64,000 bases of DNA from Escherichia coli (GCF_024223415.1 NZ_CP100500.1), one strand, 5' to 3'. Shown: positions 21,949 through 27,500, numbered from the stretch's first letter. Notes: a model not told the origin generated them from the sequence alone. Translations and numbers: made by a program.

Positions 21949-22776
21949 TTACTTAACCTGAATAAATGGTGTGTTGGCACCGCTGGTCATGTATTGCGGC
22001 AGTGTACCGTTCCACTTGTTGATGGCTTCCAGCTCCATAACGTTTGGGTTCTGGCGCAGAGCTTCACCGCGTAAACGAATAGCATCGGCTTCGGCCTGGG
22101 CTTTTGTGCGAATCGCATCTGCCTGTCCGGCAGCTTCCGCGCGCAACATGTTGGCTTCCGCTTCGCGCTGTTTTACTTCCTGCTCGCGTTGCAGGGTTTT
22201 CTGGTTGGCCGTGACTTTGGCATTAATGCTGTCGATAACGGTTGGCGGGTACTCCGGCTTACCCACATATGAGAGGCTCATTACCTGAATACCGATAGGT
22301 GTCATCTCTGCCTGAATGTCTTTAAGAGCTTCATCCAGCAGCTCAGACTTGCCGCCGTCGATAAATTTGTCAGTGGTCATTTTGCTGGCCAGTCGGTTGA
22401 GTGCGTCGGCGATCTTCTGGCGCAGGTCAGTGTCGGTAATGTCATCCACGCCTTTGCGGTAGGTCTGAAACACCGTGGTAACTTTGGATGGATCAACTTT
22501 GTAGGCCACGCCAATGTGATAGCCGATGGTTGTACCGTCACTCATCTGGAAACTGAACGGTTCATCGTAGGTCTTCATTTGTTTGAAGGTGGGGAAGATA
22601 TAAACTTCAGTATTCCAGCCAGTCCAGTAGCGACCAACACCGACCACCTCACCGACGCCTTTGTCGTCGCCCAGTTTATTTACCTTGATGCCAACATTAC
22701 CTGGTTCAACGCGATCGCAACCGACAAGGCCAATAGTCGGCAGAACAATGGCTAAAGCAAAAATAATTTTTTTCAT
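21949..22776 (-). CDS. SPFH/band-7 (prohibitin-like) domain lipoprotein
   Basis: MKKIIFALAIVLPTIGLVGC lipoprotein signal (lipobox LVGC); central SPFH-like domain and Ala/Glu/Gln-rich coiled coil (QREQEVKQREAEANMLRAEAAGQADAIR). Confidence 0.7.
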   Translation of the reverse strand: MKKIIFALAIVLPTIGLVGCDRVEPGNVGIKVNKLGDDKGVGEVVGVGRYWTGWNTEVYIFPTFKQMKTYDEPFSFQMSDGTTIGYHIGVAYKVDPSKVTTVFQTYRKGVDDITDTDLRQKIADALNRLASKMTTDKFIDGGKSELLDEALKDIQAEMTPIGIQVMSLSYVGKPEYPPTVIDSINAKVTANQKTLQREQEVKQREAEANMLRAEAAGQADAIRTKAQAEADAIRLRGEALRQNPNVMELEAINKWNGTLPQYMTSGANTPFIQVK

Positions 22777-23267: not shown

Positions 23268-23601
23268 AAAGAATGCCAGGTAACGAATTGCCGTTTTTCG
23301 AGTGAGGCATTTTTTTTGTTCTTCCGTGGCGTGTTACAAAAAATAACGGGCCGACGGGTGTATCATGTTTCTGTAATGCCTGGTCAATGGCGCTGGCGGT
23401 GCGGTTGTCGATCATTTCTTTATTTCTCCCGAATAACGTTCATGACTCATTACTTCCCAGTTCCGGCCGTCGTCTTTCGATAACAGCCGCCAGCGACGGT
23501 TAACCTTCAGACTGAGATATCCGGTGCGCTGTATCCGATGCGGAAATATCCGTCGGCATCGGTACAACAACAGGACCTGCAATGCCTGCCGGTGGATCCG
23601 C

Positions 23602-23817
23602 TCAGGAATGCGTGTTGCTGTTAATGCCACCGGTTTCCTCCTGAGCAGGTGCTGTTATCTGATACCCCGCTCTTTCTGCCAGCCGTATGAATGTATCCAT
23701 GCTGGCAATCAGCTCGCCATCGCGGACTTTGCAGACACCTGTGACTTGGCCATTTTCAATTGTCATAACGATCTGCACTTTTTCGCGCACAACAGATACA
23801 GGGGATAAATTAGCCAT
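23602..23817 (-). CDS. hypothetical phage protein (71 aa)
   Basis: Start overlaps the upstream gene stop (ATGA). Confidence 0.35.
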   Translation of the reverse strand: MANLSPVSVVREKVQIVMTIENGQVTGVCKVRDGELIASMDTFIRLAERAGYQITAPAQEETGGINSNTHS

Positions 23818-24741: not shown

Positions 24742-25161
24742 TTATGCTTCCTCCTGATTTTGTTTATAAGCACCAGTCAGTAACCACATCGGATCACAGC
24801 CAAGAACATTAGCCAGAGGAATAATCTGGCTTGCCAGAGGCTCCCTCTTGCCACTTTCCCACTGGATGATAATTTCTTCATCGAGATTGAGCAGCCTGGC
24901 GAGTTCGGCGGTTGTTAAGCCGCAGTCTTCGCGTTGGGTGCGAATCCGATTCTGGGAATTAATAGCTAAATTTTGTTTGCATAAACGTGACGCGGTGAGG
25001 CTATATTTTTGAGTTACAGCCAGGATGGAGCTGGCAAGTTCAATTAACTCAGGGTTATTGCTGCTATACAGTAGTGCACCAGCCCCTACTAAGAGCTGAA
25101 TATTCTCAAGAGCATCGTGCTGATTTGTTGGTAACCCCATATACGATGACATTTTTCTCAT
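24742..25161 (-). CDS. XRE-family HTH regulator with an N-terminal helical domain (139 aa)
   Basis: C-terminal HTH CGLTTAELARLLNLDEEIIIQWESGKREPL; first gene after the promoter downstream of cI; GAGG RBS. Confidence 0.6.
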   Translation of the reverse strand: MRKMSSYMGLPTNQHDALENIQLLVGAGALLYSSNNPELIELASSILAVTQKYSLTASRLCKQNLAINSQNRIRTQREDCGLTTAELARLLNLDEEIIIQWESGKREPLASQIIPLANVLGCDPMWLLTGAYKQNQEEA

Positions 25162-25198
25162 CCTCTATAATTGCTTTGGTGAGTTCGATACCTATGTC

Positions 25199-25235
25199 AA
25201 GATAATAGGTTTACCGATTTCACCTGTCAATCGGT
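25199..25235 (-). promoter_or_regulatory. strong sigma70-type leftward promoter (pL-like) with overlapping inverted repeat
   Basis: Minus strand reads TTGACA-17 bp-TATTAT; inverted repeat ACCGAT(n11)ATCGGT overlaps the -35; TTATCG half-sites resemble the OR palindrome. Confidence 0.5.
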
Positions 25236-25250
25236 TTATCGATTTTTTCC

Positions 25251-25280
25251 AAAAAAAAGCCCACTTAAGAGTGGGCGGGT
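25251..25280 (-). terminator. rho-independent terminator downstream of cI
   Basis: Minus strand hairpin GCCCAC-tcttaa-GTGGGC followed by T8, 15 bp past the cI stop. Confidence 0.55.
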
Positions 25281-25294
25281 TAAATGATTTTTGC

Positions 25295-25987
25295 TTATGC
25301 AAAACGGTGTAGTGTCATAGGCCAACTGACAATTACTTTTCCGTCAATGTGAAGTTGTTCGAAGTCTTCCGGTTCGATAGCCCAATCCTTGTAAGCTGGG
25401 TTGTCAGATATCACCGTTAGAGTATCTTTGATTTTTTGAAGTCTTTTGATGTGCGATGTTCCAGAGTATGTAAAGGCGTATATACCATCACCATTAAATG
25501 TGCGAACTGATACATCTACAAATACCAAGTCTTCAGGGTCTATTGTGCCTTTCATACTGTCGCCGTGGGCGTTTATTGCTTTGATTGCTGATGCTGGTCT
25601 GCCGCCAAAAACTCTTGATGCGTATCCTGGCTCTATCGCTATAGATCTGACAATGTCAGGAAAATCAGAGTTATAACTACCAGGTCCGCAACTATATCTG
25701 ATGTCTAAAACATCCACGACATACGAATCAGTAACCCAATCTTCAGAAATGTTACGTATTTGGTGTGAGTCTGCAGAGGTCACGATTTCCATTGGGCCAA
25801 CACCCGATGCGAGCCATTCCGGGTTAACGCCCAAAACTTTTGCTATTTCGACTGTTTTTCTGGAACCGTTGGCTTTGTTAAGTAGTTGGTTAACACTGGA
25901 CTGAGCCATACCCACTTCTTTGGCCAGCCTACCTTGCGTAAATTTTGCGTTGCGCATAGCTAAATCAAGTCGTTCTGAAAATGTCAT
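25295..25987 (-). CDS. cI: CI-like repressor (HTH + S24 LexA-type peptidase domain)
   Basis: N-terminal HTH (FTQGRLAKEVGMAQSSVNQL) and C-terminal S24 autocleavage domain (AHGDSMKG...IKRL); divergent from the cro-like gene. Confidence 0.85.
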   Translation of the reverse strand: MTFSERLDLAMRNAKFTQGRLAKEVGMAQSSVNQLLNKANGSRKTVEIAKVLGVNPEWLASGVGPMEIVTSADSHQIRNISEDWVTDSYVVDVLDIRYSCGPGSYNSDFPDIVRSIAIEPGYASRVFGGRPASAIKAINAHGDSMKGTIDPEDLVFVDVSVRTFNGDGIYAFTYSGTSHIKRLQKIKDTLTVISDNPAYKDWAIEPEDFEQLHIDGKVIVSWPMTLHRFA

Positions 25988-26019
25988 TGCGATTTTCCTC
26001 CCCTCTCTATCTTGGCTAG

Positions 26020-26039
26020 TTTATCGGCTTTCCGATAAA
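26020..26039. promoter_or_regulatory. operator-like palindrome in the cI/cro intergenic region
   Basis: TTTATCGG-cttt-CCGATAAA perfect inverted repeat. Confidence 0.5.
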
Positions 26040-26055
26040 TATTCTAGGTTTAACG

Positions 26056-26084
26056 TTGAATATCGCTTTTCCTGTTGTTATTAT
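26056..26084 (+). promoter_or_regulatory. pR-like promoter
   Basis: TTGAAT-17 bp-TATTAT followed by AGGAGA RBS and the cro-like ATG at 26107. Confidence 0.45.
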
Positions 26085-26106
26085 GCGTTCAATAGGAGAT
26101 GCGATT

Positions 26107-26394
26107 ATGAAACATAAAGCCATAGAGAAAGCTATTGAGATTCTTGGAAGTCAGCAAGCCTTAGCCAAGCGATGCGGAAAGGCCCAGTCAACAGTCTGCG
26201 ATTGGTTGAACTGCAAGAACAAGATTTCACCAGAATTTGTGCCGTTATTGGTTGCAGCTGTCGACGGAAAGATCCAAGCGTATGAATTTCGTCCAGACCT
26301 ACCAGAGCTTTTTCCACATCCAAGCTTAGCGCGCACGGGGGAGGTGAAGGGCTTGTATGTCCCAGAATTACGTTCAGACAGAGATGCCATCTAG
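26107..26394 (+). CDS. Cro-like HTH regulator
   Basis: MKHKAIEKAIEILGSQQALAKRCGKAQSTVCDWLN... HTH; divergent from cI; track ORF 26056..26394 starts at an upstream alternative codon. Confidence 0.65.
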   Translation: MKHKAIEKAIEILGSQQALAKRCGKAQSTVCDWLNCKNKISPEFVPLLVAAVDGKIQAYEFRPDLPELFPHPSLARTGEVKGLYVPELRSDRDAI

Positions 26395-26650
26395 GTACTG
26401 CCAGGCAGACGAAGAGTGGATTCAGCAGCAGTTACAGAGGCTGCCTCCGTCACTGAGACGGAAGGTCGCCCTGAAATATGCGGAGGTATACGAAATCACT
26501 TTTGACGCTGAGCCTGTTTCATTCCGCAAGGAGAACAGAGCAAGGCACGAAGCAAACACAAGGCTCCGCCTGTTCGTGAGAAATCAGGGCAGAGCTTTAC
26601 AGGGGTATACAACTCAGCCGCCCCTGGCAGGAACGCAATCGCGCTCCTGA
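26357..26650 (+). CDS. hypothetical protein at the cII position
   Basis: 97-aa ORF overlapping the cro-like 3' end; start uncertain. Confidence 0.35.
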   Translation: MSQNYVQTEMPSRYCQADEEWIQQQLQRLPPSLRRKVALKYAEVYEITFDAEPVSFRKENRARHEANTRLRLFVRNQGRALQGYTTQPPLAGTQSRS

Positions 26651-26906: not shown

Positions 26907-27500
26907 ATGGTTAACAATTTTGCTGATGAAAAATGGATTCCGGTTCCTGTTGCTCCTTACGGCAACGCTTACCTCGTTAGTTCGGCTGGACGCATTCGCG
27001 GTGTTAATCGTGTAGCTGAATCAGAATTTTTTATTCGTCAAATCCGTGGAGTGATCCTCAAAGGGAGGGTGCGTCGGGATGGATATAAGACCGTTAACCT
27101 GAGCTACAAACGAAATCGTCAAACATTTGCCATTCATCGCCTGGTAGCGCTGGCTTTTTGCGACAACCCACACAATCACACTGAGGTTAATCACAAAGAC
27201 GGCAACAAACTAAATAACCACGCATCCAATCTGGAGTGGGTTAGCCACAAAGAAAATATTCAGCACTCAATTCTTACAGGACTCAATAAATCGCAGGGGG
27301 CTGACAACAAGCAATTTAAGGGCCTAATTGTCGCTACAAATCTTTCGACCGGGGAGGAGCAAACTTTTTGCGGGAAAAAGGCGCTAATTAGTGCTGGGTT
27401 TGATCACGGTAGTGTTTATGCGGTTATTGCTGGAAGAGTAAAGTCTCATCGTGGCCACTATTTCAAGCGCCTCCCACTGAACCATGAGGAGGCAGCTTAA
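26907..27500 (+). CDS. HNH endonuclease
   Basis: Start MVNNFADEKWIPV... with GGAGGTG RBS; HNH core EVNHKDGNKLNNHASNLEWVSHKEN. Confidence 0.7.
   Translation: MVNNFADEKWIPVPVAPYGNAYLVSSAGRIRGVNRVAESEFFIRQIRGVILKGRVRRDGYKTVNLSYKRNRQTFAIHRLVALAFCDNPHNHTEVNHKDGNKLNNHASNLEWVSHKENIQHSILTGLNKSQGADNKQFKGLIVATNLSTGEEQTFCGKKALISAGFDHGSVYAVIAGRVKSHRGHYFKRLPLNHEEAA

What the first reader, a model, noticed from the sequence alone, without database searches (positions are those of the whole stretch)
25988..26106. Immunity-region operator and promoter architecture
The cI/cro intergenic region contains a perfect 20-bp palindrome (TTTATCGG-cttt-CCGATAAA) and a pR-like promoter (TTGAAT-17-TATTAT). Related TTATCG half-sites recur at the leftward promoter at 25199..25235. 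This supports a lambda-like CI OL/OR circuit and defines the immunity specificity of this prophage.
Basis: seen in the sequence. Interest (0 to 1): 0.3.

Follow-up and report, generated by a model that had tools for sequence, protein, structure and literature searches.

The report
Prophage repressor operators, 14-bp ATCG dyads
The palindrome between the prophage's repressor gene (cI) and its cro gene is very probably a real repressor-binding site, part of an ordinary lambda-style lysogeny switch, but the working unit is a 14-bp ATCG-N6-CGAT dyad, and this immunity type has not been described before.

Summary
The palindrome is two 8-bp arms around a non-symmetric CTTT centre, so it is not a perfect 20-mer. 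The TTATCG hexamer is too common in the window to carry weight.

The conserved unit is a 14-bp dyad, ATCG-N6-CGAT:
- It occurs exactly once in OR (26023-26036) and once in OL (25230-25243). A 7/8 copy sits 25 bp away (25205-25218), over a near-consensus leftward promoter.
- A position-weight matrix (PWM) built only from unalignable Klebsiella-phage operators ranks these sites 1st, 2nd and 5th among about 64,000 window positions.
- Those Klebsiella phages share CI's recognition helix (QSSVNQ).
- Relatives with a QPTIWR helix carry ATA(C/G)-N6-(C/G)TAT instead, and the Cro helices change in parallel.

CI has an HTH plus S24 peptidase and most resembles the 434 repressor. Cro belongs to the YdaS family. 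The lambda-like OL/OR reading is supported. It is a new member of a known kind: 24 of 5,426 complete E. coli genomes carry it and no sequenced phage does.

One oddity: the only consensus-strength OR site lies at the presumed pRM, not over pR. Protein binding is inferred, not shown. Interest is low.

The parts
25295..25987 (-). cI repressor gene, 230 aa. It has an N-terminal HTH with recognition helix AQSSVNQLLN and a C-terminal S24 LexA-like autopeptidase. A Cys100-Gly101 putative cleavage site, Ser144 (GDSM) and Lys181 (KRL) are present.
   Evidence: ORF. Pfam Peptidase_S24 7.5e-17 plus weak HTH hits. PHROG 4 transcriptional repressor 1.4e-53. Invariant S/K motifs in the alignment with Klebsiella homologues. 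Closest solved N-terminal domain is the 434 repressor, E 4e-4.
26020..26039 (.). The conserved 14-bp operator core, site a (OR3-like), is ATCGGCTTTCCGAT at 26023-26036.
   Evidence: (I21). The core is invariant in 12 of 13 unique relatives and 7/8 in L029. It ranks 2nd of about 64,000 positions with a PWM built only from Klebsiella-clade sites.
26044..26057 (.). Candidate site b (OR2-like), CTAGGTTTAACGTT, 5/8 core match. It lies between and overlaps the back-to-back hexamers TAGAAT (minus strand) and TTGAAT (plus strand), 21 bp from site a.
   Evidence: It corresponds in position to the Klebsiella site ATCGCATAGGCGAT, which abuts the pR -35. Its outer blocks are unchanged in L029 while its centre changes. 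It sits at the centre of the 25-bp palindrome I8. It is not significant by match count alone.
26062..26075 (.). Candidate site c (OR1-like), ATCGCTTTTCCTGT, 6/8 core match, filling the pR -35/-10 spacer.
   Evidence: It occupies the same position as the Klebsiella-clade site c, for example ATCGCTAAAGTGAT. Between the window and L029, 0 of 8 outer positions change against 4 of 6 centre positions. A G-to-A change in three unique relative sequences (L001, L004, L028) raises it to 7/8. PWM rank 14.
26092..26105 (.). Possible site d, ATAGGAGATGCGAT, 7/8 core match. It lies at about +1 to +14 of pR and overlaps the cro Shine-Dalgarno sequence.
   Evidence: PWM rank 8 in the window. It is nearly invariant in the E. 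coli clade, with one centre-position change in L002. About 0.04 sites of 7/8 or better are expected per 120 bp. The conservation could equally reflect the ribosome-binding site.
26056..26084 (+). pR: TTGAAT, 17 bp, TATTAT, with TG upstream of the -10.
   Evidence: Promoter scan, 9 of 12. An equivalent promoter, TTGACA-17-CATAAT (11 of 12), sits at the same place in phage Mulock. The hexamers are retained across relatives.
26018..26046 (-). Putative pRM: TAGAAT (26046-26041), 17 bp, TAAACT (26023-26018), with site a filling the spacer. This is an inference.
   Evidence: It is below the scan threshold in the window. The same geometry in Mulock is detected as TTGCCA-17-TAGGAT with site a in the spacer. 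The T of CGAT is the first T of the -10 in both clades.
26107..26394 (+). cro analogue, 95 aa, YdaS family, recognition helix AQSTVCDWLN.
   Evidence: Pfam YdaS_toxin PF15943, 54.5 bits against a cut-off of 30. PHROG 35 transcriptional repressor. It is 71% identical to Mulock Cro. Closest solved structures are the Cro protein 3bd1 and XPH1 5w8y. YdaS acts as a Cro analogue in CP-933P (PMC8630535).
25230..25243 (.). OL2, ATCGGTTTATCGAT, 8/8 core match. It abuts and overlaps the upstream edge of the pL -35.
   Evidence: exact match. PWM rank 1 in the window. Conserved in 19 unique relatives.
25205..25218 (.). OL1, ATAGGTTTACCGAT, 7/8 core match. It covers the pL spacer and part of the -10, 25 bp from OL2.
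   Evidence: D2, 17-bp direct repeats 25 bp apart; rank 5. The 6 bp between OL1 and OL2 are hypervariable while the sites are conserved. Mulock has the same 25-bp spacing and the same ATAG...CGAT form.
25202..25230 (-). pL: TTGACA, 17 bp, TATTAT.
   Evidence: Promoter scan, 11 of 12. The Mulock equivalent is TTGACC-17-TATTAT.
25259..25276 (-). Intrinsic terminator of cI (GCCCAC...GTGGGC followed by a T run), separating cI from pL.
   Evidence: Terminator scan. Retained in relatives, with compensatory stem changes in UMNF18.
24742..25161 (-). First gene of the pL operon, 139 aa, with a C-terminal HTH_3 (DicA-like) domain.
   Evidence: Pfam HTH_3 1.3e-9. PHROG 4836 'CII-like regulator'. NCBIfam DicA, below cut-off. 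It is absent from the equivalent position in Mulock, which still has the dyads.

Best explanation
This is the immunity switch of an E. coli lambdoid prophage of an uncharacterised immunity type.

Shown by sequence and comparison:
- A LexA-like CI (434-type HTH plus S24 autopeptidase) and a YdaS-family Cro are transcribed divergently.
- A 14-bp dyad, ATCG-N6-CGAT, marks both control regions. The outer 4+4 bp are conserved and the 6-bp centre is free to vary.
- At OL, two dyads 25 bp apart (25205-25218 and 25230-25243) cover the -10, spacer and -35 edge of a near-consensus pL.
Degenerate copies overlap the pR -35 (26044-26057), the pR spacer (26062-26075) and perhaps the start of the cro transcript (26092-26105).

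Inferred:
- CI dimers bind these dyads through helix 3 (QSSVNQ) and shut off pL and pR in the lysogen.
- The weak sites b and c are probably filled cooperatively from the strong site a, which is 21 bp from b. Site b is 18 bp from c.
- Occupancy of site a, which fills the spacer of the presumed pRM (TAGAAT-17-TAAACT), limits cI transcription.
- Cro, whose recognition helix (QSTVC) co-varies with CI's, binds the same dyads. After SOS-triggered self-cleavage of CI at Cys100-Gly101, Cro shuts pRM.
For: 1. Gene content. CI has Peptidase_S24 plus an HTH, and Cro matches PF15943 above its cut-off. The A/C-G cleavage site and the Ser/Lys catalytic residues are invariant against 52%-identical homologues.
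2. Dyad statistics in the window. There are three exact ATCG-N6-CGAT copies in 64 kb, two of them in the two cI-flanking intergenic regions, plus a 7/8 copy at OL.
3. Independent test. A PWM built only from Klebsiella-clade operators, whose DNA cannot be aligned with the window's, ranks OL2 1st, the OR palindrome 2nd, OL1 5th, site d 8th and site c 14th among about 64,000 positions. The rank-3 hit lies inside a tRNA-Met gene.
4. Unbiased enumeration of all 4-Ng-4 dyads in 14 OR representatives puts ATCG-N6-CGAT first, with 21 hits in 13 of 14 representatives. The best dyad in 200 shuffles reached 5.
5. Footprint-like conservation. The core is invariant in 12 of 13 unique ORs. The spacer between the OL sites is hypervariable. 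Between the window and L029, 1 of 24 outer positions changes against 7 of 18 centre positions (Fisher p = 0.013).
6. Covariation of protein and DNA. All 88 loci with helix MAQSSVN(Q/K)LL use ATCG...CGAT. Relatives with helix QPTIWR (RAH1, 4A7, BTP1, SaltyDalty) carry ATA(C/G)-N6-(C/G)TAT, and their Cro helix changes in parallel from QST to QPT or QPS.
7. Geometry. The closest solved homologue is the 434 repressor. From established knowledge, its operator is also a 14-bp 4-N6-4 dyad.
8. Promoters. pL scores 11 of 12 and pR 9 of 12. In Mulock, pR, pRM and pL are all detected with dyads in the same relative positions.
9. Precedent. In CP-933P a YdaS protein footprints over the same operators as the repressor and closes PRM first (PMC8630535).
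Against: - No binding data exist. Everything about occupancy, order of filling, cooperativity and activation is inference.
- Sites b (5/8) and c (6/8) are no better than chance by match count, with 2.9 and 0.45 expected per 120 bp. They rest on positional homology and on one informative relative, L029.
- Site d overlaps the cro ribosome-binding site, which could explain its conservation.
- pRM in the window is below the scan threshold. TAGAAT could instead be a -10 element.
- The only consensus site in OR lies at pRM rather than over pR. This is the reverse of lambda's affinity order and is not explained.
- CI and Cro co-occur in every locus examined, so comparison cannot say which of them reads the dyad.
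- The relatives are phylogenetically non-independent, so the counts overstate the number of independent observations.
Confidence: 0.78

Rival explanations
1. The palindrome is chiefly Cro's site rather than CI's. The YdaS-family Cro binds the consensus dyad in pRM with highest affinity to shut off cI, as lambda Cro does at OR3. CI's biologically decisive sites would then be those over pR and pL.
For: The only 8/8 site in OR sits at the pRM-proximal position. In CP-933P, YdaS binds the PRM side first (PMC8630535). Cro's helix co-varies with the dyad as well as CI's does.
Against: The same consensus dyad occurs at OL2, where a repressor function is expected. CI's helix is the better conserved of the two across the clades sharing the dyad. 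In lambda-type switches both proteins bind all sites, so this rival changes the emphasis rather than replacing the main explanation.
Confidence: 0.15
2. The inverted repeat acts as an RNA hairpin in the 5' leader of the cI transcript, affecting stability or translation, rather than as a protein-binding DNA site.
For: The minus-strand RNA folds the 8-bp stem at -9.9 kcal/mol. If TAGAAT were the pRM -10, the hairpin would lie at the 5' end of the leader.
Against: The fold is not exceptional: z = -1.64, and 12 of 200 shuffles fold as well. The variants at 26021 and 26037 are not compensatory. The same dyad recurs at OL over promoter elements and in the opposite transcriptional context, and it tracks the HTH recognition helix. 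None of these follows from an RNA role.
Confidence: 0.03
3. The dyads are read by another regulator: the 139-aa HTH protein encoded first in the pL operon, or host LexA.
For: The 139-aa protein has a clear HTH_3 domain and is conserved alongside OL in the E. coli relatives examined.
Against: The two Klebsiella phages whose annotation was inspected (Mulock and ST11-VIM1phi8.1) lack this gene at the equivalent position yet carry the same dyads at OR and OL. There is no LexA box (CTGT-N8-ACAG, up to 1 mismatch) anywhere in 25100-26200.
Confidence: 0.03
4. It is a chance palindrome with no function.
For: Perfect 8-bp-arm inverted repeats are common in the window, 39 in all, and TTATCG is frequent.
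Against: Independent PWM ranking, the unbiased dyad enumeration, conservation in all relatives and helix/operator covariation.
Confidence: 0.01

Closest known systems
Phage 434 repressor/Cro with OR and OL (14-bp operators ACAA-N6-TTGT)
   Same: The CI N-terminal domain is the closest sequence match among solved structures. The operator geometry is identical: 14 bp, conserved outer 4+4, variable 6-bp centre. The residues aligned with 434 Gln17, Gln28, Ser30 and Gln33 are conserved, and operator position 1 is A in both. The alignment comes; the contact roles come from established structural knowledge. Both have several sites overlapping divergent promoters.
   Different: The outer bases are ATCG rather than ACAA, and the residue aligned with 434 Gln29 is Ser here. 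Cro is a YdaS-family protein, not a 434-Cro homologue. OL has two sites, not three. The consensus OR site is next to cI rather than over pR. Homology to 434 is weak (E 4e-4), so this is a resemblance and not membership of the 434 immunity group.
Phage lambda CI/Cro OR-OL switch
   Same: Divergent cI and cro genes. A CI with an S24 self-cleaving C-terminal domain. Operators at both OR and OL overlapping pR, pL and the presumed pRM. A site (b) between back-to-back -35 hexamers, like OR2. A cI terminator before pL.
   Different: Operators are 14 bp rather than 17 bp and differ in sequence. The strongest OR site is in the OR3-like rather than the OR1-like position. OL and OR are about 0.8 kb apart rather than 2.4 kb (lambda value from general knowledge). 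The first pL gene is an HTH protein rather than N. Cro belongs to a different family.
CP-933P PaaR2 / YdaS / YdaT switch of E. coli O157:H7 (Jurenas et al. 2021, PMC8630535)
   Same: It is a lambdoid immunity region in which a YdaS-family protein is the Cro analogue. YdaS binds operators overlapping those of the repressor at PRM and PR and also regulates a PL. A ParE-family toxin gene lies in the leftward region of both.
   Different: The repressor there is PaaR2, not a LexA-like S24 CI. Its operators are 18-bp repeats with half-site consensus GTTTAGTAA, unrelated to ATCG-N6-CGAT. No YdaT homologue was seen next to cro here.
Immunity regions of Klebsiella phages Mulock, ST13-OXA48phi12.5, ST11-VIM1phi8.1 and about 58 IMG/VR relatives
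   Same: The CI recognition helix is identical (MAQSSVN-LL). Cro is 71% identical. They use the same ATCG-N6-CGAT dyads in the same positions relative to pR, pRM and pL, and have the same 25-bp OL1-OL2 spacing.
   Different: CI is only 52% identical overall. The intergenic DNA cannot be aligned. The dyad centres differ (GCCAAGGC-type against GGCTTTCC). OR spacings are 27 and 19 bp against 21 and 18 bp. They have three good OR sites and three OL sites, against one good OR site and two OL sites here. The downstream modules differ (lambda-type cII/O/P there; helicase-primase here). Their operators are not described in the literature either.

Membership tests
Lambdoid CI/Cro immunity switch (OL/OR type) | Divergently transcribed repressor (HTH plus LexA-like S24 domain) and cro genes flanking a short intergenic control region | tested here: met
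   cI 25295-25987 (minus strand), cro 26107-26394 (plus strand), 119-bp intergenic region. Pfam and PHROG assignments.
Lambdoid CI/Cro immunity switch (OL/OR type) | Several related dyad-symmetric operator sites in OR overlapping pR and pRM | tested here: inconclusive
   One consensus site (a) is solid. Sites b (5/8), c (6/8) and d (7/8) are supported by positional homology and by the L029 comparison, not by match statistics. pRM is inferred only.
Lambdoid CI/Cro immunity switch (OL/OR type) | A second cluster of the same operators (OL) over a leftward promoter on the far side of cI | tested here: met
   OL1 at 25205-25218 and OL2 at 25230-25243 lie over pL, which scores 11 of 12. PWM ranks 5 and 1. 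Conserved in 19 unique relatives.
Lambdoid CI/Cro immunity switch (OL/OR type) | CI and Cro bind the same operators with opposite order of preference | not testable with these tools
   Only indirect support: the CI and Cro recognition helices co-vary with the dyad, and there is precedent in CP-933P.
Lambdoid CI/Cro immunity switch (OL/OR type) | RecA-stimulated self-cleavage machinery (Ala/Cys-Gly site, catalytic Ser and Lys) | tested here: met
   Cys100-Gly101 (Ala-Gly in Mulock), GDSM Ser144 and KRL Lys181 are invariant. Peptidase_S24 7.5e-17. Cleavage activity itself is untested.
434-type repressor/operator | N-terminal domain homologous to 434 R1-69 | tested here: met
   phmmer E 3.6e-4 to 4e-4 over residues 4-64. 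The homology is weak but is the best among solved structures.
434-type repressor/operator | 14-bp operator with conserved outer 4 bp on each side and a variable 6-bp centre | tested here: met
   Top dyad ATCG-N6-CGAT. Centres vary while the outer blocks are kept.
434-type repressor/operator | Operator sequence ACAA-N6-TTGT (434 immunity) | tested here: not met
   The sites are ATCG-N6-CGAT, so this is not the 434 immunity group.
YdaS / Cro-analogue family (PF15943) | Match to the family model above the curated cut-off | tested here: met
   54.5 bits against a cut-off of 30, residues 6-65.
Host LexA-controlled promoter (SOS box) | CTGT-N8-ACAG box in the control region | tested here: not met
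   No match with up to 1 mismatch between 25100 and 26200.

The most novel reading that the evidence does not exclude
The switch may be wired differently from lambda. In this E. coli clade the only consensus-strength OR dyad lies in the spacer of the presumed pRM, and the sites over pR are degenerate. That is the reverse of lambda's OR1 > OR2 > OR3 order. Either CI repression of pR depends wholly on cooperative recruitment from a site that also throttles cI (a built-in tight negative autoregulation), or site a is essentially Cro's lock on pRM.

In addition, E. coli and Klebsiella prophages share an identical CI recognition helix and the same operator half-sites. Immunity could therefore cross genus boundaries, with specificity set only by the 6-bp centres and the spacing.
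Probability: 0.2. Interest if true: 0.4.

Novelty: new member of a known kind. Interest (0 to 1): 0.2.

Why it matters
The result gives a concrete, testable operator definition (ATCG-N6-CGAT, with six mapped sites) for a prophage immunity type. That type is carried by about 0.4% of complete E. coli genomes and, in a sister form, by many Klebsiella prophages, and none has been characterised.

The natural series of helix and operator pairs is a ready-made case for studying how 434-like repressors and their partner Cro proteins change specificity together:
- QSS helix with ATCG
- QPT helix with ATA(C/G)
- QAA helix with ACAACC-type sites

In practice it helps predict superinfection immunity and cross-repression among co-resident prophages. 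It does not change how such switches are understood to work.

Tried and rejected
- TTATCG as the repeat unit: rejected. It has 41 copies in the window, and at OL the exact hexamer falls in a different register from the OR half-site.
- DNA search of sequenced phages found no record carrying this immunity region. The only hit was 56 bp downstream of cro.
- RNA hairpin reading: the fold is unexceptional and the variants are not compensatory.
- LexA box: absent.
- The rank-3 PWM hit at 33811-33830, considered as a possible extra operator, lies inside tRNA-Met, so it is a chance match.
- The 139-aa HTH protein as reader of the dyad: rejected, because the Klebsiella phages inspected lack it yet keep the dyads.
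- Literature search for the four operator sequences found no paper. General searches returned only the CP-933P and Rac YdaS work, which has unrelated operators.
Every locus with this CI helix also has the YdaS-type Cro.
- NCBIfam gave no equivalog for CI or Cro.

Full report
**Observation**

TTTATCGG (26020-26027), CTTT, CCGATAAA (26032-26039) is an inverted repeat with perfect 8-bp arms. The pattern TTATCGG-N4-CCGATAA is unique in the 64-kb window. TTGAAT-17-TATTAT lies at 26056-26084, 22 nt before the cro ATG at 26107. cI (25295-25987, minus strand) begins at 25987, so the stated interval is exactly the cI/cro intergenic region.

Three details need correcting:
- The centre CTTT is not self-complementary, so this is not a perfect 20-bp palindrome.
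- Inside 25199-25235 there is only TTACCG (25211-25216). The exact TTATCG is at 25236-25241.
- TTATCG occurs 41 times in the window, and perfect 8-bp-arm inverted repeats with short spacers occur 39 times. Neither is significant alone.

**What the recurring unit is**

Repeat analysis found a direct-repeat family, GTTTAYCG..TTT, shared by OR and OL. It also found two 17-bp direct repeats 25 bp apart at OL (D1 and D2). Read as dyads, these are ATCG-N6-CGAT:
- Exact copies lie at 26023-26036 (OR) and 25230-25243 (OL).
- A 7/8 copy lies at 25205-25218 (OL).
- Only one other exact copy exists in 64 kb.

The leftward promoter is near-consensus: TTGACA-17-TATTAT on the minus strand, 25230-25202, 11 of 12 matches. 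OL1 covers its spacer and part of the -10. OL2 abuts its -35. A good intrinsic terminator for cI (25276-25259) lies between cI and pL.

**The proteins**

CI is 230 aa with an N-terminal HTH and a C-terminal Peptidase_S24 domain. Cys100-Gly101, Ser144 (GDSM) and Lys181 (KRL) are present and invariant against 52%-identical homologues, in which the cleavage site reads Ala-Gly. CI therefore has the parts needed for SOS-triggered self-cleavage.

Cro is 95 aa and belongs to the YdaS family (PF15943, 54.5 bits against a cut-off of 30). Its nearest solved relatives are the PDB entries 3bd1 ('Cro protein') and 5w8y ('protein XPH1'). A YdaS protein has been shown experimentally to be the Cro analogue of the cryptic lambdoid prophage CP-933P. 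There it footprints over the same operators as the repressor and closes PRM first, although those operators are unrelated 18-bp repeats (PMC8630535).

**Distribution**

No record in the phage collection carries this immunity region. Twenty-four of 5,426 complete E. coli genomes do, at 91.7-99.9% identity and always on the chromosome. IMG/VR adds 22 more loci of the same clade.

Across 13 unique OR sequences, the core TATCGGCTTTCCGAT is invariant except in L029, which has ATAGGCATTCCGAT. The outermost palindrome positions vary: T26021 to C in 5 of 13, and A26037 to G in 2 of 13. The 'perfect' 8-bp arms therefore belong to a sub-lineage and are not the selected unit.

At OL the two dyads are conserved, while the 6 bp between them are the most variable columns of the whole region.

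**Independent evidence from distant relatives**

The nearest sequenced phages are Klebsiella phages (Mulock, ST13-OXA48phi12.5 and others). Their CI is 52% and their Cro 71% identical to the window's. Their intergenic DNA cannot be aligned with the window's. However, the CI HTH region is nearly identical (TQGRLAKEVGMAQSSVN-LLN), as it is in all 58 further IMG/VR relatives.

Their OR reads ATCGCCAAGGCGAT, then ATCGCATAGGCGAT abutting the pR -35, then ATCTCTTTTGCGAT in the pR spacer. Their OL reads ATAGCCAAGGCGAT, 25 bp on ATCGCTAAAACGAT, 21 bp on ATCGCATAAGTGAT.

Three analyses follow from this:
- An unbiased count of every 4-Ng-4 dyad (g = 0-12) in 14 OR representatives puts ATCG-N6-CGAT first, with 21 hits in 13 of 14. 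The best dyad in 200 shuffles reached 5.
The third-ranked hit is inside a tRNA-Met gene.
- Two more hits fall in OR: 26089-26108 (rank 8) and 26059-26078 (rank 14).

**Protein/DNA covariation**

Four CI homologues at about 47% identity (Klebsiella phage RAH1, E. coli phages 4A7 and SaltyDalty, Salmonella phage BTP1) have the recognition helix QPTIWR instead of QSSVNQ. Their OR regions carry ATACGCTTGCGTAT, ATACGCATTGCTAT, ATAGCAATTGCTAT and the like. The geometry is the same 4-N6-4, but the outer block changes from ATCG to ATA(C/G). Their Cro helices change in parallel (QPTVW or QPSVS, against QSTVC here). A third helix type (QAAIQK in PhiR26_1) goes with ACAACC-type sites.

CI and Cro within each phage thus carry matched helices that track the operator. 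This is the best available argument that both read the dyad.

The closest solved structure to the CI N-terminal domain is the 434 repressor. From established knowledge, its operator is likewise a 14-bp ACAA-N6-TTGT dyad with contacted outer bases and an uncontacted centre. In the alignment, the residues matching 434 Gln17, Gln28, Ser30 and Gln33 are conserved, and the one matching Gln29 is Ser here.

**Architecture of OR (part shown, part inferred)**

The site centres are:

| Site | Centre | Core match |
|---|---|---|
| a | 26029.5 | 8/8 |
| b | 26050.5 | 5/8 |
| c | 26068.5 | 6/8 |
| d | 26098.5 | 7/8 |

By match count alone, b and c are no better than chance: 2.9 and 0.45 sites expected per 120 bp. 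Three things support them:
- They correspond in position to the clear Klebsiella sites. Site b lies against the pR -35 and site c fills the pR spacer.
- In L029 the outer blocks of a, b and c are kept (1 change in 24 positions) while the centres change (7 in 18; Fisher p = 0.013).
- A G-to-A variant in three unique relative sequences (L001, L004, L028) raises c to 7/8.

Site b sits at the centre of a 25-bp palindrome, ATATTCTAGGTT-T-AACGTTGAATAT (I8). This places TAGAAT (minus strand) and TTGAAT (plus strand) back to back.

In Mulock the promoter scan detects pR (11 of 12), pL (10 of 12) and a leftward TTGCCA-17-TAGGAT (9 of 12) with site a exactly in its spacer. The same geometry in the window gives TAGAAT-17-TAAACT (26046-26018). 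I take this as pRM, although it is below the scan threshold.

On this reading, site a corresponds to OR3, b to OR2 and c to OR1. The only strong site is then the pRM-proximal one, the opposite of lambda. I cannot explain that from sequence. It is the one mildly unusual feature.

**Rivals**

- An RNA-hairpin role is weak: -9.9 kcal/mol, z = -1.64, and no compensatory changes.
- There is no LexA box in the region.
- Chance is excluded.
- It remains open whether site a is primarily CI's or Cro's.

**Comparison and novelty**

The system works like the 434 and lambda switches. It meets the testable defining features of a lambdoid OL/OR immunity region. It does not belong to the 434 immunity group, because its operator sequence differs. 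Neither these operator sequences nor those of the Klebsiella sister clade appear in the searchable literature.

It is therefore a new member of a known kind: a well-formed but ordinary immunity region.

Noticed in passing
window 23412-23630 (-), with 23602-23817 (-) upstream: A ParE-like toxin gene (PF24732, 3.3e-17) lies in the leftward early region. It is preceded by an overlapping 71-aa ORF with no family match that could be its antitoxin. CP-933P also has a ParE toxin system in its immunity region.
   Followed up: partly
window 26907-27500 (+): A NUMOD4/HNH_3 homing-endonuclease-like gene sits between the small gene after cro and the helicase-primase replication module. It is present in strain Ch1. 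Other carriers of the same immunity region have Rha, bssS or ash modules there instead.
   Followed up: partly
window about 26344-26394, and 26357-26650 (+): There is a mosaic joint inside the 3' end of cro. Similarity to most relatives stops at about 26345-26350, and cro is 95 aa here against 80-81 aa in them. A 97-aa ORF (PHROG 852, unknown function) overlaps the cro end by 38 nt in another frame.
   Followed up: partly
window 26039-26063: A second, imperfect 25-bp palindrome, ATATTCTAGGTT-T-AACGTTGAATAT (10 of 12 arm positions), places TAGAAT and the pR -35 TTGAAT symmetrically back to back around candidate site b.
   Followed up: partly
window 26092-26105: ATAGGAGATGCGAT is a 7/8 match to the operator dyad. 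It lies over the cro Shine-Dalgarno sequence and the first bases of the pR transcript, and is nearly invariant in the E. coli clade (one centre-position change in L002). It could be a fourth operator, or only a conserved ribosome-binding site.
   Followed up: partly
window 24742-25161 (-): The first gene downstream of pL, where lambda has N, encodes a 139-aa protein with a C-terminal HTH_3 (DicA-like) domain and an uncharacterised N-terminal half. PHROGs labels it 'CII-like regulator'. Two 63-aa genes of unknown function follow it.
   Followed up: partly
window 33777-34009 (+): A phage-borne tRNA cluster (Met-CAT, Arg-TCT, Thr-TGT) lies just downstream of a 367-aa ORF (32075-33178, minus strand) whose translation looks like an OmpC/NmpC-type porin. 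The porin call is by eye only.
   Followed up: partly
L011 and L012 (IMGVR_UViG_2681813321_000026); NZ_CP039404.1: One 24-kb IMG/VR contig holds two copies of this immunity region about 10 kb apart, and one E. coli chromosome has two matching places. These could be tandem or double lysogeny, or an assembly artefact.
   Followed up: no
window 21949-22776 (-): An SPFH/Band 7 family protein (PF01145, 3e-31) with a lipoprotein-like N-terminus is encoded in the leftward region of the prophage. It may be a cargo or exclusion gene.
   Followed up: no
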